From: Trypanosoma brucei
Lineage: Eukaryota
Length of the DNA: 64,000 nt
Direction: 5' to 3'
Assembly: GCA_000002445.1 (NCBI GenBank)
Contig: CH464491.1
Location: 1,024,001-1,088,000 of the forward strand
Positions 589 to 51,619 of the stretch are shown one piece after another. The notes below the pieces were generated by a model, which was not told the DNA's origin, made no database searches, and saw only the letters and a program-made list of their open reading frames with translations. The position numbers and the translations under genes are program-made. Each line of letters starts with the position of its first letter. Within the stretch, counting starts at the first letter, position 1.

Positions 589-1294
589 AGAAGTGCCGAT
601 GCTGGGTGGTGCTTTGTGAGCTGTGGCACTCGCTGCCACAGCCGCCATATACATTTTTGCAAAAGAACGCGTATATGTACATGCGTATATTGGCTGAAAA
701 GGATCGTGTGTTGCCACCCGCTTTAATGGGAGGTTCCATTGGCACCAGCCGCCTCAACAGGGCCCCAGCTTCTAACGAACCCCTGTTATGAGGTGAAGTG
801 AGGAGCCGGTAACATCTTATATACGGGAAAAGGCTGTCGCATATGCTTTAGACACGGCAGCTTATGGCACATGCGCCAATACCGTTGTTCTATGACTCCG
901 GCTCGCCCCTCTCGGTTACCAGCCGCGTGTCAGCGGCCTATTAGCATCGTCACGAGGGACAATGTGCTGCCAATTTTTGATACCAAAAGTATGGACCAGG
1001 CTGTACGTCAGTGGCCGATGCGGGGACGTTTCCCACAGGGGCACGGAAAAAGTTTTATCGGTTGTTGTGGGGCGTGCGTTATGGAAAAAAAAAGGTCAAT
1101 TGGATGAGATTGAAGCAACCACATTATCGTTGCAAGCGCTGCGAAATCACTCTCAGTTCGTTCCTTGCTTACGGTCCTCCCCGCCAACCAGTGGGGATGG
1201 CACCGCATACTCAGTCCTTCTTTAACTTACCCGCTTGTAATAGCAACAATAATAGCAAGTATTAGAAACGGTTGACACTCCCCTTGAGAGTTAG

Positions 1295-2290
1295 ATGAGC
1301 GTGCCTCGTTTGCGCGTCCCCGACCAGAACGACGAACAGTCATCCGCAAAACATTTTCCTGCAGATGACTGTCCAGCGAAGTCGTCAAGTGTAAGGACTA
1401 CGGCTGCTAACGGACAAAGTACAGCTCAATCAATCAATGTGAGTGCGCGCTTTTTGCCTTATGATGATATTTGCGGAATCGGACCAACACTTCATAGCAG
1501 CCCGACGGAGGAGAACGAGATGAACTGGTCTCACGAGCACGGCGCCAATAGGTTCCTATCGGATAGGGAAACGCATGGAACGCGCCGCCTTTGCTTCACA
1601 GGCGGCAGCAGTGGCGGTGGTACGCTCAGCGAGTCCCAAGAGACGACGGCGTCGGAGTTTGTGATGGAACTACGGGACGCCCTTAAGCAAACGATGGCGG
1701 AAGGCAACTCACCGACGGACTTGGAGGTTGACGGGAGTGCGGGCCCTGCCATTTGGATGCGCTTGTTTGAGAGGTGGCCCCTGGAGTTGGCCGCCTCGGG
1801 GTATGCGGAGTGGTGGTTGCGACACCCCAAGTGCGGTGAGGACGCTTCCCAGCTGTTCCAAATGTTCATCGATGGAATTGCGAGAGAGGAGTGCCGGCGT
1901 AACCCCCTTGACGGGGAAAAGGATGGAGAGGAACTGCGTGACGGTGTTCTTCAAGGTGCGCTTGTTATGCTTCAAGCTCTCTACGCTGACCCACCGCAGT
2001 CGCTTAGGGCGGCCTTCGGGACACCACTGTACCACCAACAGTTGTTCTTCCGTACCTGTCGCCTTGGTGCTCTCGGGGATGGACGGGAGTTGGCCCTCTG
2101 TCTTTCTCTTGCCGCTGCCATTGCGCAACGCATCGCAGGGAACAAACTGGCGATGCGCCACGACTTGAGCCGCTTCATTGGGAGAGTGCGCCGCAACTGG
2201 CAGGCTCTGCGGGAGAAGTGGTCAGACGAGGAAAAACTCGTCTTAGAGGTTGGAAAGGTGGAGGCTCTTCTTGCATTTGCCCTCGACTGA
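1295..2290 (+). CDS. hypothetical protein, 331 aa
   Basis: Long ATG-initiated ORF in the sense orientation of the cluster, with balanced non-repetitive composition. No motif recognised. Confidence 0.4.
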   Translation: MSVPRLRVPDQNDEQSSAKHFPADDCPAKSSSVRTTAANGQSTAQSINVSARFLPYDDICGIGPTLHSSPTEENEMNWSHEHGANRFLSDRETHGTRRLCFTGGSSGGGTLSESQETTASEFVMELRDALKQTMAEGNSPTDLEVDGSAGPAIWMRLFERWPLELAASGYAEWWLRHPKCGEDASQLFQMFIDGIAREECRRNPLDGEKDGEELRDGVLQGALVMLQALYADPPQSLRAAFGTPLYHQQLFFRTCRLGALGDGRELALCLSLAAAIAQRIAGNKLAMRHDLSRFIGRVRRNWQALREKWSDEEKLVLEVGKVEALLAFALD

Positions 2291-2547
2291 GGCTTAAGGT
2301 TGCGCTTCGCAAGAAGGTTCGTTTCGTTGCTTCCCACATCACGGCCCTTCCTTACTACATGCGCTCTCATCAGGGTGTCCGGCATTTGGGTGGCATGCTC
2401 AGCGCCATCTTCATTCCCTTCTTGTACTTAAGGTGTTCCGTTCATCCTAACCATTACCGCTTCATTCTGCAATGGAAAAGTGATGTTGAGTCTCCGGAGT
2501 TTTCTATTACCTTCTTTTCATCAGCTTGCTTTTAGATTCTGGCTGCG

Positions 2548-3420
2548 ATGTCGACAAAGCCAAAACCTTTAGTCATTTTGGTTGTGGGAATGGCAGGCAC
2601 CGGCAAGACAACGCTAGTGCACAGGCTGCAACACTACGCCGAGGAGAAAGGTAAAAAGACGTATTTCATAAATTTGGATCCGGCAGTTGCGGATGTTCCT
2701 TACGGCGCCAACATCGACATTCGTGACACAGTCAACTACAAGGAAGTTATAAAACAGTATCGACTGGGACCCAACGGTGCTATCATGACATCGTTGAACC
2801 TGTTTGCAACGAAGTTTCACCAAGTCATTGGTATTCTTGAAAAAAAGGAAGGTCTTGAGTGGATCGTTGTGGATACGCCTGGTCAAATCGAAGTTTTCAC
2901 TTGGTCAGCATCGGGGCAAATAATCGCCGAGTCCCTGGCGGCCACGTGGCCAACAACACTTTTGTTTGTCGCTGATACAGCCCGCTGCGCAAGTACACAG
3001 ACATTCATGAGCACCATGCTATATGCGAGCAGCATCATGCTGAAGCAGCAGCTCCCGCTCGTCCTTCTCTTTAATAAAACGGATGTCGTTTCTTCAGATG
3101 CCGCAGTGACTTGGATGAAGGACCCGAATGCGTTGGCGGAAGCGGTTAACAGCGGTACGGATGGGAGTTACGCAGGGAGTTTAGTCCAATCCCTCTCCCT
3201 TTTCACGCACGGCTTCTACGAAAGCATTCCTTTTGCCAGCGCATCTGCTGCGTCAGGAAAGGGCATAGAGGAATTGGAGGAGGCCCTCGTAGTTGCGAAA
3301 GAACAGTATTTAAGGGACCGCGCGCCGCGAGTCGGCGAAAGAGAAAAGTTGGCGAATGAGGACGCGATTGCCGCGGAAGATATGATTCGCGCGTACCGCG
3401 AGGACCGGAAGAAGGATTAA
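2548..3420 (+). CDS. GPN1: GPN-loop GTPase 1 (XAB1/Npa3 family)
   Basis: P-loop VVGMAGTGKTT near the N-terminus, the diagnostic GPN motif (YRLGPNGAI), a VDTPGQIE switch II-like segment, and NKTD (NKxD) guanine-specificity motif. Confidence 0.85.
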   Translation: MSTKPKPLVILVVGMAGTGKTTLVHRLQHYAEEKGKKTYFINLDPAVADVPYGANIDIRDTVNYKEVIKQYRLGPNGAIMTSLNLFATKFHQVIGILEKKEGLEWIVVDTPGQIEVFTWSASGQIIAESLAATWPTTLLFVADTARCASTQTFMSTMLYASSIMLKQQLPLVLLFNKTDVVSSDAAVTWMKDPNALAEAVNSGTDGSYAGSLVQSLSLFTHGFYESIPFASASAASGKGIEELEEALVVAKEQYLRDRAPRVGEREKLANEDAIAAEDMIRAYREDRKKD

Positions 3421-6400
3421 ACTACCCAGCTGCTAAGTCAATGCATGTGAAGTGGGGTATCGTTTAAGGTGTTTTCATACCACATCCCTCCCTTGAGTCT
3501 GTAAAGCTTATGTTCATTTTTTTTTTTAACTCGTTTCACTGCACAATTTTCCTGCGGCACAAGGCACGCCGCCTTTTCTCTTCTTTTTTTTTTCGTTTTG
3601 TCATAGTGCCGTCTCTCTGCAGTGGGAATGAAACATTACGAAGCCCAAAAAAGGTGGGAGCTGGTGACGGGCCTTCACGTCAAAGGCAAAGTGTGTTATT
3701 TCACTGAAGGTATAGAAAATCAAGGAATCGGGGAAAAGCAACCGCTTTTTATGGGAATTGGTTGGCGGGGTCCATTCGAGGTCACCTCAACTGCGGGGCA
3801 ATGCCGGGCGGCTGAAAGAGGACCGGTACATTAAATGGCGCTAGGCTTCGCGTCATGTTGGTCGAGTCTAGGGTCTCGCTATCGAATTCCAACACACCAC
3901 CACAACCCCACTAGGAACCAAACGCAGAAATGATGATTATTATTATTATTAAAAGTTCTTGACAAACATTTGGTCGAGAAAAAAAAAACGAACAACATTT
4001 AAACGTGTAATGCTGTCGAAGTCCCGAGTACGGTCACTACAGGTGAAAGGCGAGTTGCCTGTGATTCACATTGCACTAGCGGTCTCCACACACACACGAA
4101 CACGCAGAAAAAAAAATAGAACGCTGCGCCGCCATGGGCAGAAGCCGGTGTTGTTGTAAGTTTTCTGTAAGCATGCATAATGATAGGGCGTGTGGACATT
4201 TGTATATTCCTTTTTTTCCCCCACGCTTTTGCTGCACAGATAGCGCTGTGGTGGCACAGCTCATTCAAATGGCTTTCAGGAAGGTTAGGTTGGCCACGGT
4301 ACCGTTTCCCCCCTCCAATTTCGCCACCTGTGACATTTAAGCGCGCGGATGGGGGGCTGTCAGTGCTCTTACCGTAAGTAACTGCGGGTCCTCCTCCCCT
4401 CCCTGGCCGTGTGCTCATCTTGGGTGCCTCATCAGCCCTGCTTTTCCGACAATGCGGCACCTGAGTGCATGGCGCTGGTGCATCATCCAACCATCCTTTT
4501 CCACTTCGTTCCTTTCCGCTTGGGGGCTTTGCAATGGCCGCGTTAGCTCCAAGATGAAGTTTCCTGGCGTGCTGCCATAGTCCCGTCTGTGCTCAGCAGG
4601 GCTTTCCACATTAATTCGACATCATATGTTTTTACCGAAAGGCCACTCAGGGGCGTTGCCGTTGCTTCCTCATGTTGTTCTCTTTGCTTCTTTCCTTCTA
4701 CTGTCTCCTCCGCCCTCCCTAAGACCTATTGAGCTGGTCGGTGAATAACCACGCCGCGGCAGCACTCGATCACTGCGGACTCGGTGCTATTTAAAGTGAC
4801 TGATTTTGTAAACTTCCTGCCACACCCCCCTCGATGCGCCCTGAGCCTACCCTTTTCACCCGTGGGGTCGAGCACACTGTTATCCCGTGTCAGGAATATG
4901 GCAACCGTGCTCCATTCGCGGCTCTTCTTCGCAATCGCCACTCTGTAGGTTTCCCTTCAGTCTCTCCCGTGTTGGCGACACCTCATTTATCAGGAGGAGT
5001 TTCCAATCCGCCTGAACTGTTAGTCGTGCTATGAGTCACCGTTTTCAATTTTTCCGCAAGCCCCTTTTCGGGACTCCGGTGCTCATGTCAAATCACTTCC
5101 CTTTCTTTACATAACACGCGGCCGACGGGGCTGTGGCGTCATCGTGTGTCGCTCCGCTTTGCGCCCGGTGTCAAGGAAATGCAGCCGCAGCTGAGGATTC
5201 CGGACGACACAGGAATGCCTTGCAACCCTTCCCTGAGGTGCCATGGGCTTGTGGTCGTATGTTGTTTTGAGAGATCGCCTGCTTTCGCTCGGCCAATTTT
5301 CCAGCTTCATTCCGCACCACTGATACGACCGCCTTGCAAATGGTCATCTTGGTGGTGTTAAACAGCTTCCGGACTTCGTTCTGCCTTTTCCCGCTCACCG
5401 AACCTCGGGAGCGCCCGTGCGCCACATTGAATTACACAAGCCCGAGTACTGACGGGCGGATGCGGCACTGTCCGTGACAGTCATGTTTACAAGGAGGTTT
5501 TGGGCGCCTTTTTGCCCTGTGCCAGCACTGGTGCCCGCACGCGCTTTTCGGCCACATCGTTTGCTGCTGAGTTTCATCCTGACGATAAAAAATGTTTCGG
5601 GGCATATGACCGTGCCTCGGATTCTGGCAGTGCTCCTATTCCGGGGCGGCCGCATTGTGGTTAGTTCGTTGGGAATTATGACGGGCCGGCTGCTCACCAC
5701 TTCTTCCCCTCGACCGCCTCACCGTGTGCACCGGTTTCGGCGCTTATTAGGGGCGATCGCTCTTCGGTATCGCCCAAAATGTTTCGTGGTGCGGGCACGG
5801 AATGATTCAGAGATAGTTTTTCCTGCCCTGCTGAACTTCCCCTTCTTCGGTGCAGGCTTATAGTTACCGCGGTTGCCTCTGCGCGTGCTTGGCCCTAATC
5901 CGGCTTCGAATGTAGCGTGTGCCTCTTTGTGCTTCTGCTTTATGTCTCCCACCAAAATATCAACTTTTATATGTTAGGTGTGTTTTTGTGCAGTTGTTTC
6001 TTCCACTGCAATCTCATCTGCTATTGCACTGTCTTTCCAAACAACGTGGTGGGAGAAATAAGCCGCATAGAAATCACCGCATTCTTTTTACTGATTGTGA
6101 AAATCACCCTTCCATACGCGGCTCGGGATTTCATCCTCCACGCGACTGTCTTTCATTGTTTCCAGTACCGTATTTAGCACCTTTTCAATTGGCACTGCTT
6201 CTGCACGATGGTTGCATGCCCATATTCAGGTGTCCCTTTAATTCTGTATTTTTCCGTGTTGCCGAAGATTATCATTTCTGCAGTGGACTAACTGCCTAAA
6301 CTCACCAGTTCATCTGTTGAAACTTTTCAGTCCTTGTTGTATATCCCTATTTTTTGCGGCGTATGAGCCCTCCTCCATCCGTCTGTTGCGTTTGCTTTTA

Positions 6401-8218
6401 TACCCACCCATGGAGGGCAATTTTGTGCACACTCTGGGACCAGCGTCCAAGGAGCTTTAAGTGTGGAGTACACCTTGATTTTTGGTGTCGGAGCACCATC
6501 CCTCCACTGAATTCAGCCATTCAAGTATTGGATTGTTTCGCGGACATCACCGGCTTACTATGCTTGAAAAGCGCCCTCTTTTAGCGTTTGACATGGGGCG
6601 GTATTCCGTCGTCCTCTTGTTTGCCGGTTTTCAAACAAATATCAGTCGTGCTTTTTTGAGCATGTCTTGTTTGTTCGAGTCCGAGGAAACCACAGCAATG
6701 ATTTGAACTGATTCAGCTTGCGCGCTTTCCGTCTTCCTCCCTTTCAGGTAGAGACATGAGAATCGCCTAAGAGCGACGCCGTAGTTTATCTTTTAGTGGA
6801 CGATTCCGTAGTGGAAGGCTGTAAACGCTTTCTTCCGTGGAGCACCGTTCAGCTAACACTACGGCATTGAGCCTCTCTAAACTTGTTCTTTCTGATTTTG
6901 TCGTTTGGTGAGCATGCTTTTCAATCCTTCTTTCAATGGGTGCAGTGTGGCCCGCGGGCTTTTGGGTCTTTGCATCGTTGGCCATTTTTCCTCGTCAACA
7001 TGAGGCCTTGTGGGTTCCAGATGCCTAATCCAAGTGCTGTGTGCCCCGTCTTTTCCTCCAGCGCTTGCGTATAGCATCTTAGCGGCTGTCGCGCAAACAC
7101 TCTTTCTCCGCTGCGGCGCACCTCCCAGTTTGTTTTCGTCCGAATCCGTCGCTTTGAGGATCGGATTCCTGGTAAATAAACTATCGTTGGGTCCTGGGGT
7201 CTTATTCAGTTCCGTGCTCAACGTTTCCATCGCTCTAAGAAATAGGATGCAGCCTAACGCCGACACCCGAAGAAACCCACGCGTCAATCCCGCGTTCGTC
7301 GAACTCTATAGTCGTTGTCATGATCTTTCTTGTTCAGTGAGGCGGGGAGTTGCTTATCCACCATGTTGGATGTGATATCTACTTTGAACCACCCCATCAC
7401 TCGAGCAACGTAGCTGCGACCCCACTCAATTAAGCCCCATCAAAGAGTTTATAAACACTGCTGCAATTAAGGAACTGTTTTCCTTCGATCCGATAGCACT
7501 CAGAAATTCTAAAACAGAATTAGCGCTGCATATTCATCGTTGGAAACCTGACTATTGTAGCTGAAGCGGCTCTCAGAGGCAGTTTTTTTTTCACTCTACC
7601 AAGTGCCACTCTTCGGATGACACCGACCGCGGTGCCGTCTGGCGCCAGCGGTTGGGATGATTCAACGCCTTTAGCTGATTTGTTCTGCTTAAAGAATGGT
7701 ACTATGGTCCCTCTTGGCTGCTCAGGGAATTTGTTCAACCTTTGGAAGCGGCTGTTAAACTAAGGTAAGAACCACCTTTAACGCTCCCCGGTATGAATTC
7801 CGTTGCATCCAGTCGCCGTCCACACTATATAATTTCCCCGTTACTTTCGATTCGCCACGAAGACGCCATGAATACACAACTGCGCGACTTTAAGGGCATT
7901 AGTGGAACGATTCGTATACTTGTCTGCCAAAGCCCGCAGCCGCCGCCCTTTCGTCGGTGGGTGACTGGTCATTACACTGGAATGGGGGCGGATGGCGGTC
8001 ACAACGCAAATACTGATTTTAGCAGCGCTCAGGTGTTCTTCAGGGTGGATTGTTTCGAGGCGTCCTGCCTCCCTGTCCCTAGAGCTGTTTCGGTTAGCGG
8101 ACTCTTTCTTATTTCGGTGAAGATAGTTCTCTTGGTCGACTTCCTATACTGGTTCATTCTGCTTTCAGGGGTTATCAGTTCTGCTGCTCTATCGAAGGTC
8201 GTTCGGCAGCGGTTGCCG

Positions 8219-8230
8219 TTAGAGTTTCCC
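8219..8230. repeat. Target-site duplication, left copy (TTAGAGTTTCCC)
   Basis: Exact 12-nt direct repeat of 8736..8747, immediately flanking the retroposon. ingi/RIME insertions characteristically generate 12-bp target-site duplications. Confidence 0.75.
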
Positions 8231-8735
8231 CCTGGCGATGCCGGCCACCTCAACGTGGTGCCAGGGTCCAGTACCCCGTATCATCGGGGGAAGCCAAGAG
8301 CCAGCAGCGTTCCTTTCATGGGGAACACTGCTGTGCTCCGGCTACGGCATCATACAGCACAGGGATCAACAGCGTCTTGCTGGGACACTGTTTTTCATTT
8401 GTCGGTCCCTGGGCACGTGCCAGCGTGCCATCAGCAGTATCATCCGCGCTAAGATGCTGCTGTCCGGTGATGTGGAACTCCAAAAAAAAGAATTGCCAAT
8501 TGGCATCTTTTGGAGAGTCCGGAGTGGGGGGCTTCTCGCTCCATCTGCTGTATTCCGTTCATGTGCGGAAATACAACAAAAAATTATAGAGGGTGTGTCA
8601 GGATGAATGAAAAAGGGAGACTCTGCCACAGTCGCCAGACCGATAGCATCTCAGGGCTCTACGGTGATGGCTGATGGCCGCGCCAGTGGGGGGAAACTCT
8701 CATGAAGGCACGAAGAAAATTTCAAAAAAAAAAAA
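8231..8735 (+). mobile_element. RIME-like non-autonomous non-LTR retroposon (ingi/RIME family), about 505 bp, with a 3' A12 tail
   Basis: 5' end CCTGGCGATGCCGGCCACCTCAACGTGGTGCCAGGGTCCAGTACCCCGTATCATCGGGGGAAGCCAAGAGCCAGCAGCG matches the roughly 77-79 nt conserved 5' signature of trypanosomatid retroposons (ingi/RIME/L1Tc/NARTc/SIDER) as recalled from the literature. Length of about 500 bp, a terminal poly(A) at 8724-8735, and an exact 12-bp direct repeat of flanking DNA are all visible in the sequence. Confidence 0.7.
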
Positions 8736-8747
8736 TTAGAGTTTCCC
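8736..8747. repeat. Target-site duplication, right copy (TTAGAGTTTCCC)
   Basis: Exact copy of 8219..8230, lying directly after the A12 tail. Confidence 0.75.
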
Positions 8748-11700
8748 GACTCTTTCAAATTTACCTCATCGCAATGCTTAAGACATGCGTCCTCTGTGGG
8801 AAGATATTTTAATCTAGCTACTCTTTGCCAGACCGGGGTTTCTTCATTAGCAATTGCTAAGACCAGTTCCATTTGCCAATCCACTATGAGCTCACCGCCC
8901 CTCTGAAGCACAGGACTCTCAGCGGCACGGCGATGGGCCCGTTTCCACTTCGGTGCCTGGTGGGTTTTGATTCCCGCTCGGTTGCTCCTGCTTCTCACTG
9001 ATTACGTTAAGACTCTTGGGGGAAACGCACGGAGGTCACAGCGAGACGTCGGTTGTTTGAAAACACCGGCGCAACGATTGCGCTTTCTAAAAGTCCTGTT
9101 GTCTGCGGACTCCTGAAAACAGTTAATCTATCTCGAGGGAGTGCTGAAAATCCTCCGCCTTCTGTTTTGGGGCGGGCCGCCCCAGTGCGTTGGTAGTGAA
9201 TGAGACTGTGTGCCGTACCCTCCCCAGCTTTCATGGACGCCTCCTGCGCCGGATCGGAACCCGCCGCGCCCACGTGGGCCGCTGTCGGCAAGGGCGGCTG
9301 TTCTCCATCTAACGGTGCTTTCGCGTTCCATTGACTTCGCCGGAGGATGGGGTATTGTGGTTCATGGGAATCCCAGCCACGAAGGGAAGGGGGCTCGAGA
9401 AACAGGGAGCGGCGGAGCTGTGTGTTTGCAGTTCCGGGGGCGGTTGCTTAAAGGGTGGGTCTTTCCTCCACGTTATCCCTTTCCAAAAAGCCGCTGCCTG
9501 GCCGCCGCGGAGGTTACCGGTTCAGGGTCAGCGAGAGGTTGGCTTTTGGCTTCGTTTTCACTAGCCGGCTGCCGGTGCCAGTTCATCGGATGGGTTGCAG
9601 TATCACGTGAAAGGACGTTCTCTCGCGTGCGGGAAATCGTTGTGCGAAAAGGTCGGGGGAATGAACCTTGCCAGTGGTATGCCCTCTACCGCTGCCGTCC
9701 TTGTGGTCTTGCAATGCTTTGACCTGTGGGCACGGTTGTTTTCGTTTGGTTATTGATGACATATGCCCACTTTCATCAATCCGCTTCGAGGTGTGTATGG
9801 TTCGCGCGTGGAACGGCTTTGGCTTCTACATTTTTTTAAAAAGTTTGACACTGTCTTCTCAAGTTACTTGGATTTCGTATTTGGGAAAGACGCTGGTGAT
9901 ATATTGTGGTTGTTGTTATACTGGTTGGAGATCTAATGCTCAAAGTAACTATTAATTATTACAACTCGATAAAAAAAAATGTCCCGAGGGTGCTAAAGGA
10001 TATGTATAAATGATGAAGCTTTCAAACGATTTCCCTCTGACTTTGTTCGGCCGGTTGTTCAGGCGTTTTGTAAGATTTTCATTGTTGCGAACAACTATGC
10101 TTGCTTTCCTATTGGTCTATGAGATGTGAAGCTATGGGGATACCTTTGCTTGGGATTAATAAAAAAGACTACTATTCCGTCGCAAGATTCTATTTTTTTC
10201 CCCCCTCTCTTTTGCGTGTATTTTAGCCCGGTAGGTTGTTTTTCTGGTGGTCATATATGATTTTATCTCATGGTGGTGTCGCAACCGATTTTGCTTAAAT
10301 CATATGGTTCATATTTCTTAGTGAAATATTTCTTTTGTTTAATACAGGAATACAGGCCAGTCCGTGGCATGTAGCGCATGCACTGATGAGGTCGCCGTTG
10401 TTCCGCCTCCGTGATATTGTGGAGGTAAGAGTTTCCCAAAATGTCTTCGAACCCTCAATGTAGTTAATGAATATTTGGGAACGGTGCGTTGTTGCTCCTT
10501 AGGGTGGATAAGGGCCACCTGGCGAATGCTTAGCGGTTTATCTTAAGGGCCTGAGGTTGGGGATGGGGACACACATCTAATTTGTAAGTGTTTTACACAC
10601 TTTTCTGATTTTGCTTTTGAGGGAAAATTGTTTGCGTCCCTCAGTGGGCAAAAAGGCGCTTAAACTCATTAGGCCACCATATTTTAAATATTGTGATCAA
10701 TGATGTTAAATATAGGTAAACTACTGTGCCCTCGCTTGACTCAAGGAGTTCAACCAACGATGATTCCACTGCCAATGACAAATGCATGTTCGAAACAAGA
10801 GGGGATGCGGTCGTTTTTCCGCGGGCGGCGTGCAAAAAAAAAAAAAAGGACGGCGAAGTGCAGTAACAACAAAACACTTTATAAAAATAATGCCACTCTC
10901 AGCGACACGTGCTGCTAATAGAGATGGTGCTACCCCTTGGATAATTATCCGTTAGCATGGCCACTGTGCCCACTTGTTGTCATGACTCTGTTGGGCTGTC
11001 ATCTTAACTGTTTGCCTTACCGATAGGTGCCCGTGAGGCATATCCGTAACAAGCAGTTGCTTATTCCTTTTCGTCTGGGTTACTTTCCAACAAACAAAAT
11101 TTGGTTGTACAATGCGCATCGTGAGGCTTCAGCAGAGGAACGACATCATTTCCTATTGAGGATTGTATGCTTGTACATAAAATATGTGAGTGCGTTTGAT
11201 TTTTTTTAACCTTTAAGGACAAATTAGTAGCATCCGTAGCAAAGGAGTGAATGTACAAGTGTCGGTGTGAATATAATTTCTCGTTATTCACATCGCTTTT
11301 TTGGGATGACTAAACCGCTGCGTGTATTGGCGTATCGGGTTATGCTGATATAGTTTTGATGTAATGCGGTCTAGTTTGTTGGACACATGTTATTGTGTTG
11401 GACTCGAATTTGGTGGTTTACTGTTTCGGTTCTTTGAATATTTTCATTGTGGTCCGTACAAAAGTTTTGGTCAGTTATATGTGGAGGGTTGTTTAAAAAT
11501 ATTTTCTCTTCGTTACTTTTTTGTTTTATTTACAACTGCTATAATCCTATTTCCCCATTTTACCTCTTGATAGAGGTATTTTCAAAGCAATTATTAACGG
11601 CGAATACACGACATCACCATCGATTGTTGACGGGCGAGTGTTTACACTTGGGGTATACTACTAAGTGAGGCCGAGTTTGATTATTTCCCCATGTGCTGTG

Positions 11701-13042
11701 ACGTTTCTATTGTGTTAGTTTTTACACTGGTCATATACTTAAATATTATACATTATATATATATACATATATTAAATTTTGAACCTGCGTCGCATCTTCT
11801 TCAGGAAAAAATTTTCTTACTCCCAATTCTGATAGTTATTTGCATTAATCGACCAGGCGTTTGTTGTGGAGACTGTTCTTTGGTCCTTGTTAATGGATCT
11901 GTGGTCAGGTGTGCGCGTGCATGCTATCTAAAATTTGATGTTTGCATGAATCTTGGGGGTCATATATTGACGAAGATAAAGATTCTGTTCATGGAATTGA
12001 GGTACGTAATTTTTGTGCTTTTCCGATCCGGTTATTACCAAATGACAGAAACACTGTTGTATTGCCACTTCGCGTAGGGGCGTTCAATTTCTAAATTTAT
12101 ATGTTTTTGTATCTGGTCCCGTGCCTAGCCAAAATTATCCGACGCTTCCGCTGATAATGATGTTGACCATTTCCTGTGTGGAATGGAAAGTATTCTCTTA
12201 ATGCTCAGCCGTCCTAGGGCCCCACCGTACTTTTCTAAAAAAAAGAAATGATGGTGACGAGGTGTTGTAGGTTGCGTATGAGGCGAATCGGTTGAGTGCA
12301 AAGACCTGTTGTCACTTGAGGAAGACGGTTTTATGCGTGGCTTTCCTTTAAACTGTTGGGAGGTTTGAGGCAGTCGATGCGATACAGAGCCTTCTGGGTG
12401 CTTGTTTGTTGTGAATATATTTTTTAATTTGTGTTGGATTGACACGATGGGTCGCCACGGTGCCAAGTGATGTTCCTTCTACTTTTGTGTTAGGAAAATA
12501 TCCTCTGTTAACTACATGTCTACCGTTGACTTTATTAATGGTGTGATGCCTAGCGTCGTCCTAATTGTTCTCTGTGGGTGATGGTTGGAAGAGGGTAAAT
12601 ATGTACGCATAGTTTCGTCGTTGAATTTGTTTTCCACTGTACGTGACAACAAGTGTACTGTTTTCTCTGATGCAAGGTGAGCAAACTCGGCTGTGCTTTT
12701 TATATGTTTTAGCTTCTTCAACATATACATATATTTAAGGTAAGTACACCTGGAAGAACGTACAATACTTTGCGTATTTTCTTTTTTAATGACTATTCCG
12801 ATCTTGACATACAACTTGTTTGTCTTTACTTGCTACGTTGTTGCGGCGGAACCATCGGGAATGTGGCATATTCTTTTTTACACCCTTTGTTTAGCTAAAA
12901 GTGTTGTGTCGTTATCCTATGTCTTGTTCTTTTGCCTTCTCTACCTGTTCACGCAGTTTATTAGACGGAAAGGAAAGAGAAGGATCACACATATTTGTTG
13001 GGCACCGCAAGAATAGGAGCATACGCTGAAGAGAAAAGTAAG

Positions 13043-15658
13043 ATGTCCACGATCGAACGGGATACTCTCCCAAGCGATCCAACACCGCACCACTACAAAG
13101 TCAGTATTGTTCCTGACTTCGAAACGTTCAAGTTCACCGGTCATGTTGACATAAAGATAACCGCCGAAAAACCTCAACAGAAAATCACTCTCAACTATAG
13201 TGATTTAACGTTTGTGAAAGTAAGGGTTACGCCAGGGGGGAGTGCATCGGAAACAGAGGAACTTCCCGCGGAATCCATAAGCCTCGACAAAACCGGGATG
13301 AAGGCAACGTTTTCTTTGCACAAGGCATTTCAAGGAGAGGCAACACTCTCGATTGATTACACGGGAATCATAAATGACAAACTGGCAGGATTTTACAGGA
13401 GCAAATACACTGTTAACGGAAAGGAGTCGTATATGGGGACAACACAGTTTGAAGCTGTTGACGCACGCCAGGCAATCCCCTGCTGGGATGAGCCTGCAGT
13501 GAAAGCTGTGTTTGAAATAATTATAACTGCTCCTTCGCACCTAATGGTGCTATCCAACACTCCATCTTACAAGAAGGAGGTGGTTGATGATAAGACACGT
13601 TGGTTCTTTGAGCCCACGCCCAAAATGTCGACTTATCTTCTCGCGTGGACGATAGGTGTGTTCGAGTGTATTGAGAGGCGCATCCAGAAGGTACACAAAG
13701 GAGCAGGTGGTCAAACTGAAGAGACCATTATACGCGTGTTTACTCCTGAAGGTAAAAAGTCAAAAGCTTCTTTTGCTCTGGATGTGGCTTCTAAAGTGTT
13801 GCCATTGTATGAAGAGTTCTTCGGATCAAATTACGTGCTTCCAAAAGTTGACCTTTTGGCAATTCCTGACTTTGCCGCCGGGGCAATGGAAAATTGGGGG
13901 CTTATAACATATCGTGAAACAGCCCTACTATGTGATGCCGAATCAAGTGCGGCTCAGAGGTACTATGTCGCTCTAGTGGTTGCCCATGAACTGGCCCACC
14001 AGTGGTTTGGAAACCTCGTGACCATGCAATGGTGGAAGGAGCTCTGGCTTAACGAATCGTTTGCCACGTACATGGAGTACCGGGCGGTGGATAAGTTGTT
14101 CCCAGAGTGGCGTGTCTTCACGCAGTTCGTCCACGATGAGGTTGCTCGAGCCTTTCAACTGGATTCGATGCGTAGTTCCCATCCCGTTGAAGTGGATGTC
14201 AAATACGCTAAGGAGATCGACGACATTTTTGATGCCATTAGTTACAGCAAGGGTGGGAGCATCATTCGCATGGCAGTTAATTTCATCGGAGAGGAGGCAT
14301 TCCAAAAGGGAATGTCGGAGTATTTGAAGCACTTCGCCTATGGTAATGCAACAACGAAGGATCTGTGGAATTTTCTTGGAAATGCTGCAGGCAAACCCTT
14401 GGCCCCTATACTGGAGTACTGGACGGGGCGGCAAGGTTATCCTTACCTTATTGTTACGTCGTCACCTGACAAAAAGACTTTGAACATAACTCAAAAGCGC
14501 TTTCTAGCTACAGGTGACGTCACCGCCGACGAGGATGAAACAGTGTGGAAGGTACCTTTGCTTATCTCGACTCCGGAAGACGGGGTTCAGCGTTATATTC
14601 TTGAGAAACGGGAAAACCCAATACCGGTAAAGTATAACTCGTGGATAAAGGTAAACAGTGAGCAATCGGCCTTCTGCCGTGTCCACTATCAAGGCAACGG
14701 TTTGCTCGAAGGTTTGCTTCCCGCCATTGCTTCGAAGAACCTCTCTGATATAGACCGATTTTCTATTATTTCCGACTACCACGCCTTTGCTCGTGCCGGT
14801 TACTGCAGCACCGTCGACGTGCTCAAGATTCTTTCTTCTTATGTTGACGAAGACGATTATACTGTGTGGTGCTCCGTCGTTGGCTTTGAGAAAGAGATAC
14901 GGATGCTGGTGTCCAGCCAGGGTCGAAGTGCTGTTGATTCACTGAATGCTTTCTGTCGCAACTTGTACTCGAATGCCATGAAACGACTCGGCTACGCGCA
15001 GAAGCCTGGCGACGATAATCGTTTGACTCAACTGCGCAGCGTTCTCTTCGACAGACTCGTAACATCTGAGGATAAGGAGGCCGTTGCCTATGCTTGCAAG
15101 CTTTATGCGGAACGGCAAAAGGTGCCAATTCCTTCGGACTTGCGGTACACTGTGTACGCTACGCACGTTAAATTAAACGGCGAGCCCGCGTTTCAGGAGG
15201 TGAAGCAACTTGCTGAGGTTACTGTGGACGCGATGGAGCGGACTCATTACCTTCGTGCGCTTGCATCTTCCGAAGTTGATGGTGTGGTGAGTCAGCTCTT
15301 TCAATACTCTCTCTCCGAAAAAGTTCGGAGCCAGGACGTTTTGGCCATTCTTGGCGCACTGGCCAGCAACGCTGCGAGGGTTAAAGCATACGCCGAAGAA
15401 CTGAAGCAGATGTGGCCAAGGTTGGGGAAGGAGCTTCCCGGACTTATACTCGGGAGGGCGCTAAAATATTTGGAAAATGGTGCTGATGCAGCGGTGGCCG
15501 ATGAAATGGAACAGTTCTGGAGCCACCTTGCTGATGAAGCTAAATTCGGGATGACCCGCAGCTTCCAACAGGGTGTGGAGGGACTCCGCAACAACGCAAA
15601 ATGGGCGGCGCGAGACGTGAAGACTGTGGTCGAGTTTCTTTCGGTTGCAGCGTTATAG
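13043..15658 (+). CDS. M1-family zinc aminopeptidase (aminopeptidase N / puromycin-sensitive type), 871 aa
   Basis: GAMEN exopeptidase motif (AAGAMENWGLITYRE) and the zinc-binding HELAHQWFGNLVTMQWWKELWLNESFA (HExxH-x18-E) motif. The track ORF begins at TTG 12995; the first ATG is at 13043 (MSTIERD...). Confidence 0.85.
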   Translation: MSTIERDTLPSDPTPHHYKVSIVPDFETFKFTGHVDIKITAEKPQQKITLNYSDLTFVKVRVTPGGSASETEELPAESISLDKTGMKATFSLHKAFQGEATLSIDYTGIINDKLAGFYRSKYTVNGKESYMGTTQFEAVDARQAIPCWDEPAVKAVFEIIITAPSHLMVLSNTPSYKKEVVDDKTRWFFEPTPKMSTYLLAWTIGVFECIERRIQKVHKGAGGQTEETIIRVFTPEGKKSKASFALDVASKVLPLYEEFFGSNYVLPKVDLLAIPDFAAGAMENWGLITYRETALLCDAESSAAQRYYVALVVAHELAHQWFGNLVTMQWWKELWLNESFATYMEYRAVDKLFPEWRVFTQFVHDEVARAFQLDSMRSSHPVEVDVKYAKEIDDIFDAISYSKGGSIIRMAVNFIGEEAFQKGMSEYLKHFAYGNATTKDLWNFLGNAAGKPLAPILEYWTGRQGYPYLIVTSSPDKKTLNITQKRFLATGDVTADEDETVWKVPLLISTPEDGVQRYILEKRENPIPVKYNSWIKVNSEQSAFCRVHYQGNGLLEGLLPAIASKNLSDIDRFSIISDYHAFARAGYCSTVDVLKILSSYVDEDDYTVWCSVVGFEKEIRMLVSSQGRSAVDSLNAFCRNLYSNAMKRLGYAQKPGDDNRLTQLRSVLFDRLVTSEDKEAVAYACKLYAERQKVPIPSDLRYTVYATHVKLNGEPAFQEVKQLAEVTVDAMERTHYLRALASSEVDGVVSQLFQYSLSEKVRSQDVLAILGALASNAARVKAYAEELKQMWPRLGKELPGLILGRALKYLENGADAAVADEMEQFWSHLADEAKFGMTRSFQQGVEGLRNNAKWAARDVKTVVEFLSVAAL

Positions 15659-17967: not shown

Positions 17968-18789
17968 ATGGCCAAGAAGCACCTAAAGCGCCTGTATGCC
18001 CCCAAGGACTGGATGCTGAGCAAACTCACTGGTGTGTTTGCCCCTCGTCCACGTGCTGGTCCCCACAAACTACGCGAGTGCCTTTCGCTTCTGATTATTA
18101 TTCGCAACCGGCTGAAGTATGCACTAAATGCCCTCGAAGCGCAGATGATCCTTCGTCAGGGACTCGTGTGTGTAGACGGCAAGCCCCGCAAGGATGGTAA
18201 GTACCCAGCCGGTTTCATGGACGTGGTGGAGATTCCCAAGACGGGCGACCGCTTCCGCATCCTATATGACGTGAAAGGACGCTTTGCGCTTGTCCGCGTG
18301 AGCGAGGCTGAGTCGAGCATCAAGATGATGAAGGTTGTCAACGTATACACCGGCACGGGACGCATTCCTGTTGCTGTGACACACGACGGCCACCGGATTC
18401 GCTATCCCGACCCCCGTACGAGCCGTGGAGACACTTTGGTGTATGACGTGAAAGAAAAAAAGGTTTTGGACCTAATCAAGATTGGCAACGGCAAGGTTGT
18501 GATGGTGACAGGTGGTGCCAACCGTGGTCGTATTGGAGAAATTGTGTCCATTGAACGTCACCCTGGCGCCTTCGACATCGCCCGCCTCAAGGATGCGTCT
18601 GGTCACGAATTCGCAACTCGTGCCACAAACATTTTTGTGATTGGCAAGGACATGTCGAGTGTTCCAGTTACGTTACCTAAGCAACAGGGTTTGCGTATCA
18701 ACGTGATTCAGGAGCGTGAGGAAAAACTCATAGCCGCCGAAACACGCAGAACAACTCAGGCGCACAGCAAGCGAAAGACTAAGGTGTAA
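17968..18789 (+). CDS. RPS4: 40S ribosomal protein S4 (eS4), copy 1
   Basis: 273-aa protein with the canonical eS4 N-terminus MAKKHLKRLYAPKDWMLSKLTGVFAPRPRAGPHKLRE and a KOW-like region. Identical in amino-acid sequence to copy 2. Confidence 0.95.
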   Translation: MAKKHLKRLYAPKDWMLSKLTGVFAPRPRAGPHKLRECLSLLIIIRNRLKYALNALEAQMILRQGLVCVDGKPRKDGKYPAGFMDVVEIPKTGDRFRILYDVKGRFALVRVSEAESSIKMMKVVNVYTGTGRIPVAVTHDGHRIRYPDPRTSRGDTLVYDVKEKKVLDLIKIGNGKVVMVTGGANRGRIGEIVSIERHPGAFDIARLKDASGHEFATRATNIFVIGKDMSSVPVTLPKQQGLRINVIQEREEKLIAAETRRTTQAHSKRKTKV

Positions 18790-19037
18790 GTTGGTCTCTT
18801 TCTGCTGACTTTTTTTTTTACGAAGAAGCAAGGATTTTGGTTCCATTCATACTAATTTATTTTACGTTTTATAATCTATTGATTTATGTTGATCGAGACC
18901 CGTCACTATCACTAACATCAGCAAGGCAAGTGTGCACACTTGCAGTTCCCCCTTGTCGATAGTGTATAAAAGATACGCATTTCCTCCCCCGAAAACAATG
19001 TCTTCCGTTTAAAAAGTGGTTTGTTTAGCCGTCCCCA

Positions 19038-19859
19038 ATGGCCAAGAAGCACCTAAAGCGCCTGTATGCCCCCAAGGACTGGATGCTGAGCAAACTCACT
19101 GGTGTGTTTGCCCCTCGTCCACGTGCTGGTCCCCACAAACTACGCGAGTGCCTTTCGCTTCTGATTATTATTCGCAACCGGCTGAAGTATGCACTAAATG
19201 CCCTCGAAGCGCAGATGATCCTTCGTCAGGGACTCGTGTGTGTAGACGGCAAGCCCCGCAAGGATGGTAAGTACCCAGCCGGTTTCATGGACGTGGTGGA
19301 GATTCCCAAGACTGGCGACCGCTTCCGCATCCTATATGACGTGAAAGGACGCTTTGCGCTTGTCCGCGTGAGCGAGGCTGAGTCGAGCATCAAGATGATG
19401 AAGGTTGTCAACGTATACACCGGCACGGGACGCATTCCTGTTGCTGTGACACACGACGGCCACCGGATTCGCTATCCCGACCCCCGTACGAGCCGTGGAG
19501 ACACTTTGGTGTATGACGTGAAAGAAAAAAAGGTTTTGGACCTAATCAAGATTGGCAACGGCAAGGTTGTGATGGTGACAGGTGGTGCCAACCGTGGTCG
19601 TATTGGAGAAATTGTGTCCATTGAACGTCACCCTGGCGCCTTCGACATCGCCCGCCTCAAGGATGCGTCTGGTCACGAATTCGCAACTCGTGCCACAAAC
19701 ATTTTTGTGATTGGCAAGGACATGTCGAGTGTTCCAGTTACGTTACCTAAGCAACAGGGTTTGCGTATCAACGTGATTCAGGAGCGTGAGGAAAAACTCA
19801 TAGCCGCCGAAACACGAAGAACAACTCAGGCGCACAGCAAGCGAAAGACTAAGGTGTAA
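19038..19859 (+). CDS. RPS4: 40S ribosomal protein S4 (eS4), copy 2
   Basis: Protein identical to copy 1. The CDS differs only at synonymous sites (for example ACG/ACT at 18243/19313 and CGC/CGA at 18747/19817). Flanking sequences are unrelated. Confidence 0.95.
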   Translation: MAKKHLKRLYAPKDWMLSKLTGVFAPRPRAGPHKLRECLSLLIIIRNRLKYALNALEAQMILRQGLVCVDGKPRKDGKYPAGFMDVVEIPKTGDRFRILYDVKGRFALVRVSEAESSIKMMKVVNVYTGTGRIPVAVTHDGHRIRYPDPRTSRGDTLVYDVKEKKVLDLIKIGNGKVVMVTGGANRGRIGEIVSIERHPGAFDIARLKDASGHEFATRATNIFVIGKDMSSVPVTLPKQQGLRINVIQEREEKLIAAETRRTTQAHSKRKTKV

Positions 19860-28260: not shown

Positions 28261-28371
28261 TTTACCTTTTTATTTGTTCCTTTATATTGTTTGATTTCCC
28301 ATTTCCCATTTCTTTTCTTCTTTTATTATTTTTTTGTTATTTTGTTTCATATTCATTAGTATTTTTGTGTA

Positions 28372-28929
28372 ATGTTAAAGTGCTCCTTGTGCTATCTAGC
28401 AAGCAAGGTGACTGCGGGTAATGCGAAAAATCAAGCCGGCCACCCAAGGCGGAGGGCTAAACTATTTCATGTTGTTCCTGGTACTCCAGTTACTCCATTT
28501 GAGAAGCTAAAGGAACAGAGGCGGCGGTTTGGTCAGGATCGTCATTCGCGTTTACCTGAATATCGACCAGGGAATAATGTCCGTATGGATCCTAATACAT
28601 ACACGTTGTACGCCACAAAGAAGGGCGTGATGACGATACGTGAGAGCCGCATTAATCCCAAGTATAAATGGCTTGATGTGGAACCTGACATTCAAAAGGT
28701 TTATCGCAGTAGAGAATTGCGACGGGCACTTCAGGAAAGGGAAATGGCCTCTATGGCGGTTGGTGAAAACTCGAACTACCGGGTAGAACTGGACTTGTTG
28801 CTGGAACCGGATTGGCGTGAGCGTGTCATGCATGTGCCGAAGGCTACGGAGCGCTTCAAGGACCCCAATCTCTTTACCCGTGGTGTTGTTAACGAGCTGT
28901 CACCCTTGGATAGGTACAGTTACACATGA
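28372..28929 (+). CDS. hypothetical protein, 185 aa
   Basis: First ATG after a very long T-rich polypyrimidine tract (28130-28370). Composition is non-repetitive and coding-like. No motif recognised, and the start codon is uncertain. Confidence 0.35.
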   Translation: MLKCSLCYLASKVTAGNAKNQAGHPRRRAKLFHVVPGTPVTPFEKLKEQRRRFGQDRHSRLPEYRPGNNVRMDPNTYTLYATKKGVMTIRESRINPKYKWLDVEPDIQKVYRSRELRRALQEREMASMAVGENSNYRVELDLLLEPDWRERVMHVPKATERFKDPNLFTRGVVNELSPLDRYSYT

Positions 28930-32811: not shown

Positions 32812-33099
32812 AGTGGAGGTGAATAATGTGATGCGGTGAATATGTTTGCATGTGTGTTTGCTGTAGCTTTATGGATTGTGTTGGGTGGCGGGGGGTGGGA
32901 GCAATAAAGCAAAGAAGGAATGTAATTTATTTTAAGAGTGTAATGGTATTTTGTTAACGACGCAAAGCAAGGTGAGCAGCAACTGGGCTCAAGTGAAGGA
33001 AATGCATGAAAGGTCCATACGAGTTGCCAGCAATGACTGGACGTGCAAGAGGGGAGAAGGAGGGTAGTGGGATTGGTGTGAAGACAATGCAGTAAGGTG

Positions 33100-36000: not shown

Positions 36001-36340
36001 GTTCCGCCTGCATTAACTCGGGAAGTAAAAAATAAAAAGTAAAAAAGGAAAGGAAAGTCAATGGACGGTACTCCGCATTCCACTCGCTGAGCGGAGCTGA
36101 ACTTCACTTTGCATCCTTCTTCTTTTCTTTTCTTTTTCTTTTTCTTTTTCTGCTTTCATACATTTTTCTCATTTTTGTAATTTCTGCTTCGCTGCGGTTG
36201 CGTTTTACCGATTATGCCTTCCGCCGTTCTTTGTGGCAGAGTGCAAAAGGTGCGAAGGCCATTGAAAACAGGGTTGGGGGTTCGTACCGTATAAATTAGA
36301 GTTTTCGTACTTGATAGATAAAATAAGGAAGCCAAAACTG
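33100..36340. repeat. Low-complexity spacer with alternating purine-rich (GA/GAAA) and pyrimidine-rich (CT/T) blocks
   Basis: Examples are (GAAA)n at 34256-34272, poly-purine runs at 33290-34300 and 34450-34760, and CT-rich runs at 34770-35330. No ORF shows protein-like composition. Confidence 0.8.
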
Positions 36341-36375
36341 TATTGTGGAAAGAAACTGGAGAGCGTGCTGAAACA

Positions 36376-51577: not shown

Positions 51578-51581
<4 letters not shown>

Positions 51582-51619
<38 letters not shown>
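51582..51619. repeat. (TA)19 microsatellite
   Basis: Direct reading of the sequence. Confidence 0.9.

What the first reader, a model, noticed from the sequence alone, without database searches (positions are those of the whole stretch)
3421..13042. 9.5-kb stretch without any intact gene inside a dense same-strand gene cluster
Elsewhere in the window, intergenic distances are 0.25-1.5 kb, apart from two low-complexity spacers. Between GPN1 and the aminopeptidase there are 9.6 kb with no ORF longer than 219 aa on either strand. The stretch has two compositional compartments. The first, about 4380-9700, is comparatively GC-rich with balanced composition and many short ORFs on both strands, which looks like former coding sequence or a degenerate retroelement; it hosts the RIME insertion. 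The second, about 9700-12990, is AT-rich. Possibilities are a degenerate ingi-related element (DIRE) or RHS-type pseudogene that later served as the RIME landing site, a lineage-specific pseudogenised gene block, or a long non-coding transcript.
Basis: seen in the sequence. Interest (0 to 1): 0.55.

Follow-up and report, generated by a model that had tools for sequence, protein, structure and literature searches.

The report
Fossil retrotransposon fills a gene gap
The 9.6-kb gene-free stretch in this Trypanosoma brucei chromosome 11 window is ordinary spacer DNA plus a dead, about 5-kb ingi-type retrotransposon (a DIRE) lying backwards relative to the genes, into which a small RIME element later jumped; this kind of element is well known in trypanosome genomes.

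Summary
Window 3421-13042 has no ORF above 219 aa, whereas 20 long open frames lie on the + strand elsewhere.

The window is T. brucei TREU927 chromosome 11, between GPN1/XPA-interacting protein and an M1 aminopeptidase.

The GC-rich compartment (about 4200-9700) is a degenerate ingi/L1Tc-related element (DIRE) on the minus strand:
- Endonuclease, reverse-transcriptase, RNase H and C-terminal remnants lie in the canonical order.
- Clade-specific HMMs, tblastn and a shuffle-controlled tblastx chain detect them. Pfam does not.
- The RT catalytic FADD box has decayed to FTRN.

A 505-bp RIME (8231-8735, + strand) with an A12 tail and a perfect 12-bp target-site duplication interrupts the DIRE.

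The AT-rich compartment (9701-13042) has no repeats, Rfam matches or coding signal. Its composition matches the other intergenic regions of the window.

The whole interval, RIME included, is conserved at about 99.3% in T. b. gambiense and T. b. equiperdum. Its substitution rate is like that of other intergenic DNA.

The endonuclease-like gene that occupies this interval in T. cruzi and T. theileri has left no trace here.

The feature is of a known kind and of low interest.

The parts
3421..4200 (+). Sequence downstream of GPN1 (presumed 3' UTR and intergenic DNA), with T-runs and an (ATT)5 microsatellite
   Evidence: GC 0.46, no coding signal. 99.5% identical in T. b. gambiense. Its role as a UTR is inferred.
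4201..8218 (-). DIRE, 3' four-fifths: C-terminal, RNase H and reverse-transcriptase remnants. The 3' end is approximate; there is a possible A7 tail remnant at 4211-4217.
   Evidence: Collinear tblastx chain to a T. vivax Tvingi. Chain score is 322.7, against 212 +/- 29 (maximum 294) in 100 shuffles. The purine-content switch at about 4200 is.
5722..5973 (-). DIRE post-RNase H / C-terminal remnant
   Evidence: tblastx 5859-5728 against Tvingi, E 7e-6. Full-length HMM positions 1158-1211.
6091..6225 (-). DIRE RNase H remnant
   Evidence: tblastx 6219-6142 aligns to the Tvingi RNase H segment 'ACSYRAECVAMEAGL'. HMM positions 1032-1056. Weak individually; supported by collinearity with the other hits.
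6601..8184 (-). DIRE reverse-transcriptase remnant. Motifs are recognisable, and the catalytic FADD box has decayed to FTRN.
   Evidence: RT-fragment HMM against all 2452 six-frame peptides of the window: 6880-7305 E 4e-5, 7844-8143 E 2e-3, 7523-7759 E 0.024, all collinear. tblastn: T. vivax P0305 to 8181-7981, E 1e-7; Strigomonas P0247 to 7287-6601, E 3e-5.
8219..8230 (+). Left copy of the RIME target-site duplication, TTAGAGTTTCCC
   Evidence: Exact 12-bp direct repeat flanking the RIME
8231..8735 (+). RIME: 505-bp non-autonomous retroposon with a 5' ingi-clade signature and an A12 tail
   Evidence: The first 75-80 nt are 80% identical to the 5' end of a T. vivax Tvingi. A12 tail at 8724-8735. 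Present in gambiense and in equiperdum IVM-t1.
8736..8747 (+). Right copy of the RIME target-site duplication, TTAGAGTTTCCC
8748..9700 (-). DIRE, 5' fifth: apurinic/apyrimidinic-type endonuclease remnant (8654-9447). The 5' end is approximate.
   Evidence: Full-length HMM: 9010-9447 matches positions 19-134 (E 0.045) and 8654-9001 matches 177-203. tblastx 9024-8944 and 8902-8846 against the Tvingi endonuclease region. GC falls from 0.57 to 0.46 at 9700.
9701..13042 (+). AT-rich, non-repetitive intergenic/UTR-type DNA upstream of the aminopeptidase
   Evidence: GC 0.40 and G+T 0.58, within the range of 18 other intergenic regions of the window. No tandem or dispersed repeats. No Rfam or tRNA hit. 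No coding signal. No endonuclease-gene remnant. 0.42% substitutions against gambiense, like other intergenic DNA.

Best explanation
The gap is a composite of retroposon fossils and normal spacer DNA.

Proposed history. An autonomous ingi/L1Tc-clade non-LTR retrotransposon of about 5 kb inserted between GPN1 and the aminopeptidase, antisense to the polycistronic unit, in an ancestor of T. brucei. It then decayed by substitutions, stops and frameshifts into a DIRE (about 4200-9700, minus strand). Later a 505-bp RIME inserted into the DIRE between its endonuclease and RT parts. The RIME is non-autonomous and is mobilised in trans by ingi-encoded endonuclease/RT through target-primed reverse transcription. 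The insertion created the 12-bp TSD TTAGAGTTTCCC and an A12 tail. It was fixed before the T. brucei subspecies diverged.

The remaining 0.8 kb (3421-4200) and 3.3 kb (9701-13042) are ordinary AT-rich UTR/intergenic sequence. The interval is presumably transcribed as part of the polycistronic precursor and discarded during trans-splicing and polyadenylation. No function is required to explain it.

Shown: identity, order and strand of the retroelement remnants; RIME anatomy; presence of the interval in three subspecies; intergenic-like divergence.

Inferred: the order of events, the mechanism of insertion, and the lack of function.
For: Source. The aminopeptidase is 100% identical to the T. brucei TREU927 protein on a 5.26-Mb contig. 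GPN1 and the aminopeptidase have consecutive GenBank accessions, so no protein is annotated between them.

DIRE:
- An HMM built from 120 Tvingi/Tcoingi RT fragments was searched against all 2452 six-frame peptides of the 64-kb window. The top four hits all lie on the minus strand at 6880-8280, collinear with the model, with E 4e-5, 2e-3, 0.024 and 1.9.
- An HMM of 20 full-length endonuclease-RT-RNase H proteins puts 7 of its 9 best hits on the minus strand between 9447 and 5722, in strictly ascending model order from position 19 to 1211.
- The tblastx chain to a T. vivax Tvingi scores 322.7. The plus strand scores 221, and 100 local shuffles give 212 +/- 29 with a maximum of 294.
- tblastn with kinetoplastid RT proteins gives E 1e-7 and 3e-5.
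- The remnant spans about 4.98 kb without the RIME. Published DIREs are about 5000 bp (PMC3820030).
- The + strand is pyrimidine-rich across the element.

RIME. It has 505 bp, an exact 12-bp TSD and an A12 tail. A 12-bp TSD is the published hallmark of Tbingi/TbRIME (PMC3820030).

Age and constraint. The interval is collinear and 99.3% identical in T. b. gambiense DAL972 and T. b. equiperdum IVM-t1, RIME included. Substitutions against gambiense are 0.4-0.8% in the interval, 0.2-0.6% in other intergenic DNA, and 0-0.04% in the neighbouring single-copy coding sequences.
Against: - General Pfam models (RVT_1, Exo_endo_phos) find nothing in any frame at E <= 1. Detection rests on clade-specific profiles and on collinearity.
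- Most single hits are weak.
- The 5' 76-79-bp signature expected of DIREs was not detected above background: local alignment score 36, within the null range up to 42.
- No convincing TSD or poly(A) tail for the DIRE: best 10/12 match, which is about chance. Its ends are therefore defined only by composition and by extrapolation from the profile.
- No T. brucei ingi reference sequence was available to me. Assignment to an ingi subfamily, and the ingi-end composite structure of the RIME, were not tested.
Confidence: 0.9

Rival explanations
1. The interval is the decayed remnant of a lineage-specific host gene (or gene block) that once lay between GPN1 and the aminopeptidase. The candidate is the DNA/RNA non-specific endonuclease-like gene found there in other trypanosomes.
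For: In T. theileri the order is GPN1, an Endonuclease_NS gene (442 aa), then the aminopeptidase. T. cruzi has the same gene (460 aa) directly upstream of the aminopeptidase. Homologues were found only in non-salivarian trypanosomes: T. cruzi, T. c. marinkellei, T. rangeli, T. conorhini, T. grayi, T. theileri and T. melophagium. Loss in the T. brucei lineage is therefore possible.
Against: tblastn with the T. theileri and T. cruzi proteins finds nothing in the window. An HMM of eight orthologues also finds nothing: its best hits have E > 2, are scattered, and none lies on the + strand within the interval. No + strand codon-usage signal. The gene may equally be a gain in the non-salivarian clade. 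The homologue search is word-indexed and could miss distant copies.
Confidence: 0.04
2. The interval has been co-opted as a functional unit. It could be a boundary inside the same-strand gene cluster where RNA polymerase II terminates and re-initiates, or a long non-coding or unspliced transcript driven by the RIME 5' internal promoter (Pr77).
For: Retroelements of this clade accumulate where polycistronic transcription starts, and their first 77 nt act as an internal promoter in T. cruzi (abstracts of PMC4748587 and PMC1874656). The RIME points the same way as the downstream genes. The gap is the longest in the window.
Against: No tool here reads chromatin or RNA. Composition (G+T 0.58) is the same as in other intergenic regions. 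No Rfam match. Divergence between subspecies is as high as in other intergenic DNA, so there is no sign of constraint.
Confidence: 0.05
3. It is a centromere-like or RHS-type repeat domain: either a retroelement plus an AT-rich array, or a retrotransposon-hot-spot pseudogene.
For: T. brucei centromeric domains contain a DIRE or ingi element next to AT-rich DNA (PMC1868937). RIME and ingi elements often sit in RHS pseudogenes (my own knowledge).
Against: - Published centromeric AT-rich DNA consists of tandem arrays of 2-8 kb lying between directional gene clusters.
- Here Tandem Repeats Finder finds only microsatellites of at most 31 bp, and there are no dispersed repeats.
- All flanking genes are on one strand.
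- No RHS (or any other) Pfam domain in six frames.
Confidence: 0.01

Closest known systems
[quoted passage not shown]
   Same: About 5 kb long. It carries vestigial endonuclease-RT-RNase H coding sequence of the ingi/L1Tc clade, riddled with stops and frameshifts. It lies in non-coding DNA of a core chromosome.
   Different: The 5' 76-79-bp signature, the poly(A) tail and a TSD are not detectable in this copy. It lies inside a same-strand gene cluster rather than at a strand-switch region.
TbRIME (ribosomal mobile element), the non-autonomous partner of Tbingi
   Same: 505 bp, non-coding, with the conserved 5' signature, a poly(A) tail and an exact 12-bp target-site duplication.
   Different: Nothing unusual was found. 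It is nested in an older, oppositely oriented relative. It shows 2.6% substitutions against the gambiense copy, which is higher than in its surroundings.
Tvingi copy at the corresponding position in T. vivax (locus L002, 593-5743, minus strand)
   Same: Same side of the aminopeptidase and the same antisense orientation. Same domain order. It also has a gene-free AT-rich stretch of 4.3 kb between it and the aminopeptidase.
   Different: The T. vivax copy is much younger. Pfam recognises its RVT_1 domain, it has ORFs up to 217 aa, it is 60-83% identical to other T. vivax copies, and its 5' signature is intact. It is probably an independent insertion. The upstream neighbour is not GPN1.

Membership tests
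DIRE | Protein-level similarity to the ingi/L1Tc-clade polyprotein, with domains in the canonical order (endonuclease, RT, RNase H, C-terminal region) | tested here: met
   Collinear minus-strand hits from 9447 down to 5722 covering HMM positions 19-1211. RT HMM E 4e-5, 2e-3 and 0.024. tblastn E 1e-7 and 3e-5. Shuffle control.
DIRE | Length of about 5 kb | tested here: met
   About 4200-9700 minus 517 bp of RIME plus TSD gives about 4.98 kb. Published size is about 5000 bp (PMC3820030). The ends are approximate.
DIRE | Degenerate: no intact ORF, many stops and frameshifts | tested here: met
   The longest minus-strand open frame is 197 codons. The remnants lie in different frames. The FADD box is replaced by FTRN. 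Pfam detects nothing.
DIRE | Conserved 76-79-bp signature (Pr77) at the 5' end | tested here: inconclusive
   The best local alignment of the RIME signature to the minus strand of 9200-10100 scores 36. The null from 141 other blocks has mean 22.7 and maximum 42.
DIRE | Vestigial poly(A) tail and 12-bp TSD | tested here: inconclusive
   There is only an A7 run (4211-4217, minus strand). The best flank match is 10/12, about what chance gives.
RIME | About 500-bp non-coding element | tested here: met
   505 bp between the TSD copies. No Pfam hit.
RIME | 5' signature shared by the ingi clade | tested here: met
   Positions 1-75 are 80% identical to the 5' terminus of the T. vivax Tvingi. It also matches the RIME/ingi 5' sequence as I remember it; that is a recollection, not a test.
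RIME | 3' poly(A) tail and 12-bp target-site duplication | tested here: met
   A12 at 8724-8735. TTAGAGTTTCCC at 8219-8230 and 8736-8747. The 12-bp TSD is stated for Tbingi/TbRIME in PMC3820030.
RIME | Composite of the two ends of ingi | not testable with these tools
RHS (retrotransposon hot spot) pseudogene | Similarity to RHS protein domains | tested here: not met
   Six-frame Pfam scan: 0 families at E <= 1.
Pseudogene of the DNA/RNA non-specific endonuclease-like gene of non-salivarian trypanosomes | Residual similarity on the + strand between GPN1 and the aminopeptidase | tested here: not met
   tblastn and an eight-sequence HMM give only scattered hits with E > 2.
T. brucei centromeric domain | AT-rich tandem repeat array of several kb beside a DIRE or ingi, between directional gene clusters | tested here: not met
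   No tandem array. All flanking genes are on the + strand. Definition taken from PMC1868937.

The most novel reading that the evidence does not exclude
The GPN1-aminopeptidase interval may be a recurrent, tolerated landing pad for ingi-clade retroposons in salivarian trypanosomes. It holds an old antisense DIRE plus a RIME in T. brucei, and an independent young antisense Tvingi in T. vivax. It may have been co-opted as an internal boundary of the polycistronic unit, with termination upstream and re-initiation downstream, possibly helped by the sense-oriented RIME Pr77 promoter. This may have coincided with the absence of the endonuclease-like gene found there in other trypanosomes.
Probability: 0.06. 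Interest if true: 0.4.

Novelty: already known. Interest (0 to 1): 0.1.

Why it matters
It matters little beyond correct annotation.

DIREs and RIMEs are catalogued components of the T. brucei reference genome. PMC2323293 states that all ingi/RIME and DIRE copies in T. brucei were identified and annotated.

What this check adds:
- It removes an apparent anomaly: a 9.6-kb hole in a dense gene cluster.
- It shows that general Pfam models can miss such fossils entirely, while clade-specific profiles plus collinearity recover them.
- It flags two small evolutionary points. Ingi-clade elements inserted repeatedly upstream of the same aminopeptidase in two salivarian species. And a syntenic endonuclease-like gene is restricted to non-salivarian trypanosomes.

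Tried and rejected
- Six-frame Pfam scans with stops masked as X gave no family in any frame. At first this argued against a retroelement; clade-specific profiles overturned it.
- Rfam at E <= 1 gave only two sub-threshold chance hits. ARAGORN found no tRNA.
- The codon-usage scan found no hidden gene.
- Endonuclease_NS remnant searches were negative.
- The Pr77 signature at the DIRE 5' end was not above background.
- The TSD search for the DIRE gave chance-level matches only.
- The tandem and dispersed repeat search in the AT-rich part was negative. That excludes a centromere-type array.
- Exact look-up of the TREU927 aminopeptidase in the contig collection failed twice. Subspecies copies were reached through cluster members instead.
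- The first RT homologue search returned only short T. vivax and T. congolense fragments and no full-length T. brucei ingi. The representative-library profile search supplied longer relatives.
- The T. equiperdum OVI contig ends inside the DIRE with an inverted internal RIME fragment. I treat this as an assembly artefact, not as an alternative allele.
- The Leishmania aminopeptidase locus is not syntenic.
- A paper search for gene identifiers I guessed from memory was uninformative.


Full report
**Source and observation**

The aminopeptidase ORF (13043-15655) is 100% identical to the T. brucei brucei TREU927 protein, which lies on a 5.26-Mb contig. The upstream 290-aa protein is the GPN-loop GTPase / XPA-interacting protein of TREU927. 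The two have consecutive GenBank accessions, EAN79325 and EAN79326, so the deposited annotation has no protein between them.

The longest ORF in 3421-13042 is 219 aa (7793-8452, +). All 20 open frames of at least 270 codons in the window are on the + strand and outside the interval.

A codon-usage log-odds scan trained on those genes gives +0.1 to +0.34 in the correct frame of real genes. It never rises above about +0.1 in any frame inside the interval.

The two compositional compartments are real. GC is 0.51-0.57 in 4201-9700 and 0.40 in 9701-13042, with a sharp change at about 9700. There is also a purine-content switch at about 4200. The + strand of the GC-rich part is pyrimidine-rich, which pointed to coding-derived sequence on the minus strand.

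**The RIME**

Reading the sequence and a repeat search define a 505-bp element at 8231-8735 on the + strand. It has an A12 tail (8724-8735). It is flanked by the exact 12-bp direct repeat TTAGAGTTTCCC (8219-8230 and 8736-8747).

Its first 75-80 nt are 80% identical to the 5' terminus of an ingi-type element in T. vivax. A 12-bp target-site duplication is the published hallmark of Tbingi/TbRIME (PMC3820030).

**What the GC-rich compartment is**

General Pfam models found nothing in any of the six frames, with stops masked, at E <= 1. No RVT_1, endonuclease or RHS domain was recognisable in that way.

Synteny gave the lead. The T. vivax locus upstream of the orthologous aminopeptidase (L002) carries a frameshifted Tvingi on the minus strand (593-5743). 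It has a 2A-like DVERNPGP motif, an endonuclease, an RVT_1 domain, RNase H and C2H2 fingers.

tblastx of the T. brucei interval against this element gave one significant hit: 5859-5728 on the minus strand, E 7e-6. It also gave a series of weak hits on one diagonal. These run 9024-8944, 8902-8846, 7975-7919, 7587-7429, 7091-6951, 6219-6142, 6010-5975 and 5859-5728 against element positions 643 to 3746.

With the RIME removed, the best collinear chain scores 322.7. The plus strand scores 221 and the reversed sequence 214. One hundred locally shuffled sequences give 212 +/- 29 with a maximum of 294.

An HMM built from 120 Tvingi/Tcoingi RT fragments was searched against all 2452 six-frame peptides of the whole window. 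Its four best hits all lie on the minus strand of 6880-8280 and are collinear with the model, with E 4e-5, 2e-3, 0.024 and 1.9.

The alignments show RT motifs. 'RGTIVPFFKQNK' aligns with 'hgiiVpLLKpnK', and 'GFLRVSALGCILF' with 'GvpqgSvlGpllF'. The catalytic FADD box has decayed to FTRN.

A profile search of the representative library supplied longer relatives. tblastn with them hit the minus strand again. T. vivax P0305 matched 8181-7981 (E 1e-7) and Strigomonas culicis P0247 matched 7287-6601 (E 3e-5). A further T. vivax protein and a Perkinsela protein also hit.

An HMM of 20 full-length endonuclease-RT-RNase H proteins put 7 of its 9 best hits on the minus strand between 9447 and 5722. They fall in strictly ascending model order:

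| Window (minus strand) | HMM positions |
|---|---|
| 9010-9447 | 19-134 |
| 8654-9001 | 177-203 |
| 7523-7759 | 509-532 |
| 6880-7305 | 662-692 |
| 6634-6792 | 826-874 |
| 6091-6225 | 1032-1056 |
| 5722-5973 | 1158-1211 |

Extrapolating from the T. vivax element puts the 5' end at about 9600-9700 and the 3' end at about 4200-4300. Both agree with the compositional boundaries.

Without the RIME the element is about 4.98 kb. This is the size given for DIREs, the long vestigial ingi-related retroposons found in all trypanosomatid genomes (PMC3820030).

I therefore call 4200-9700 a DIRE on the minus strand. The RIME splits it between its endonuclease and RT parts.

Three expected features could not be shown:
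- The 5' 76-79-bp signature is not above background.
- No convincing TSD for the DIRE was found.
- There is at most an A7 tail remnant at 4211-4217.

**The AT-rich compartment**

The stretch 9701-13042 has GC 0.40 and G+T 0.58. Both are inside the range of the 18 other intergenic regions of the window, which have GC 0.35-0.51 and G+T 0.42-0.59.

It has no tandem array; Tandem Repeats Finder finds only microsatellites of at most 31 bp. It has no dispersed repeats, no Rfam or tRNA match and no coding signal.

This rules out a centromere-type organisation. Published T. brucei centromeric domains pair a DIRE or ingi with kilobase-scale AT-rich tandem arrays that lie between directional gene clusters (PMC1868937).

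Other gaps between long ORFs in this window are 3.6, 4.9 and 4.0 kb. The 4.1 kb left after subtracting the retroelements is therefore unremarkable.

**Synteny and the pseudogene rival**

In T. theileri the order is GPN1, a 442-aa Endonuclease_NS-domain gene, then the aminopeptidase. T. cruzi has the same gene (460 aa) directly upstream of the aminopeptidase.

Homologues were found only in non-salivarian trypanosomes.

Neither tblastn nor an eight-sequence HMM finds any remnant in the T. brucei window or the T. vivax locus. A decayed host gene is therefore not supported.

The RT HMM finds no retroelement in the T. cruzi or T. theileri intervals. The Leishmania aminopeptidase locus is not syntenic.

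**Population and subspecies evidence**

T. b. gambiense DAL972 and T. b. equiperdum IVM-t1 carry the entire interval, RIME included. It is collinear and about 99.3% identical.

Substitutions against gambiense:

| Segment | Substitutions |
|---|---|
| DIRE | 0.5-0.8% |
| AT-rich part | 0.42% |
| Other intergenic regions | 0.2-0.6% |
| Neighbouring single-copy coding sequences | 0-0.04% |

The interval therefore evolves like unconstrained spacer. The RIME insertion predates the split of the subspecies.

**Comparison with what is known, and verdict**

The feature is a DIRE with a nested RIME. Both families are long described. PMC2323293 states that all ingi/RIME and DIRE copies in the T. brucei genome were identified and annotated.

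The DIRE lies on the minus strand, and the AT-rich half is ordinary intergenic DNA.

The most novel reading not excluded is that this interval is a recurrent landing pad co-opted as an internal transcription-unit boundary. It rests only on position, and I give it about 6%.

Interest is low.

Noticed in passing
L002 (T. vivax) 593-5743, minus strand: A near full-length but frameshifted Tvingi lies upstream of the orthologous aminopeptidase. It has a 2A-like DVERNPGP motif, an endonuclease, an RVT_1 domain, RNase H and C2H2 fingers, and its orientation is the same antisense one as the T. brucei DIRE. A 4.3-kb gene-free AT-rich stretch follows it. It looks much younger than the T. brucei DIRE, so it is probably an independent insertion. 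GPN1 is not within 10 kb upstream there.
   Followed up: partly
L004 (T. theileri) 7446-8774; L005 (T. cruzi) 7805-9187: A DNA/RNA non-specific endonuclease-like gene (Pfam Endonuclease_NS) sits directly upstream of the aminopeptidase (in T. theileri between GPN1 and it; no GPN1 within 10 kb in T. cruzi). Homologues were found only in non-salivarian trypanosomes. No trace of it is present in T. brucei or T. vivax at this position.
   Followed up: yes
window 4218-4988 and 8369-8734: Substitutions between TREU927 and T. b. gambiense cluster in two places. There are 23 in 770 bp at the 3' end of the DIRE and 13 in 503 bp of the RIME. Elsewhere in the interval the rate is about 0.4%. Possible causes are ectopic gene conversion with other copies or old haplotype divergence.
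   Followed up: no
L001 (T. equiperdum OVI) 14077-14928 = window 6612-7419: The contig ends inside the DIRE, with 67 nt of internal RIME sequence in inverted orientation. Identity to TREU927 falls to 91-96% over 5201-7419, against 99.9-100% in the flanking genes. This is most likely a collapsed-repeat assembly artefact.
   Followed up: partly
window 4000-4419 (-) and 7793-8452 (+): Automatic annotations call a 139-aa minus-strand gene here in T. b. gambiense (presumably CBH17287) and a 219-aa plus-strand gene in T. b. equiperdum IVM-t1. Both lie in retroelement or spacer sequence with no codon-usage support and are probably spurious.
   Followed up: partly
window 17968-19859; L009 14926-18954; L005 16226-22404: The tandem 40S ribosomal protein S4 genes vary in copy number. 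There are 2 in TREU927 and gambiense, 4 in T. b. equiperdum IVM-t1, and at least 6 in T. cruzi. Tandem nucleoside-transporter genes follow them.
   Followed up: no
window 27422-30999, 32809-37747, 50514-54478: Three further gaps of 3.6-4.9 kb lie between long ORFs. The last has GC 0.35. They were not examined for small genes or retroelement fossils.
   Followed up: no
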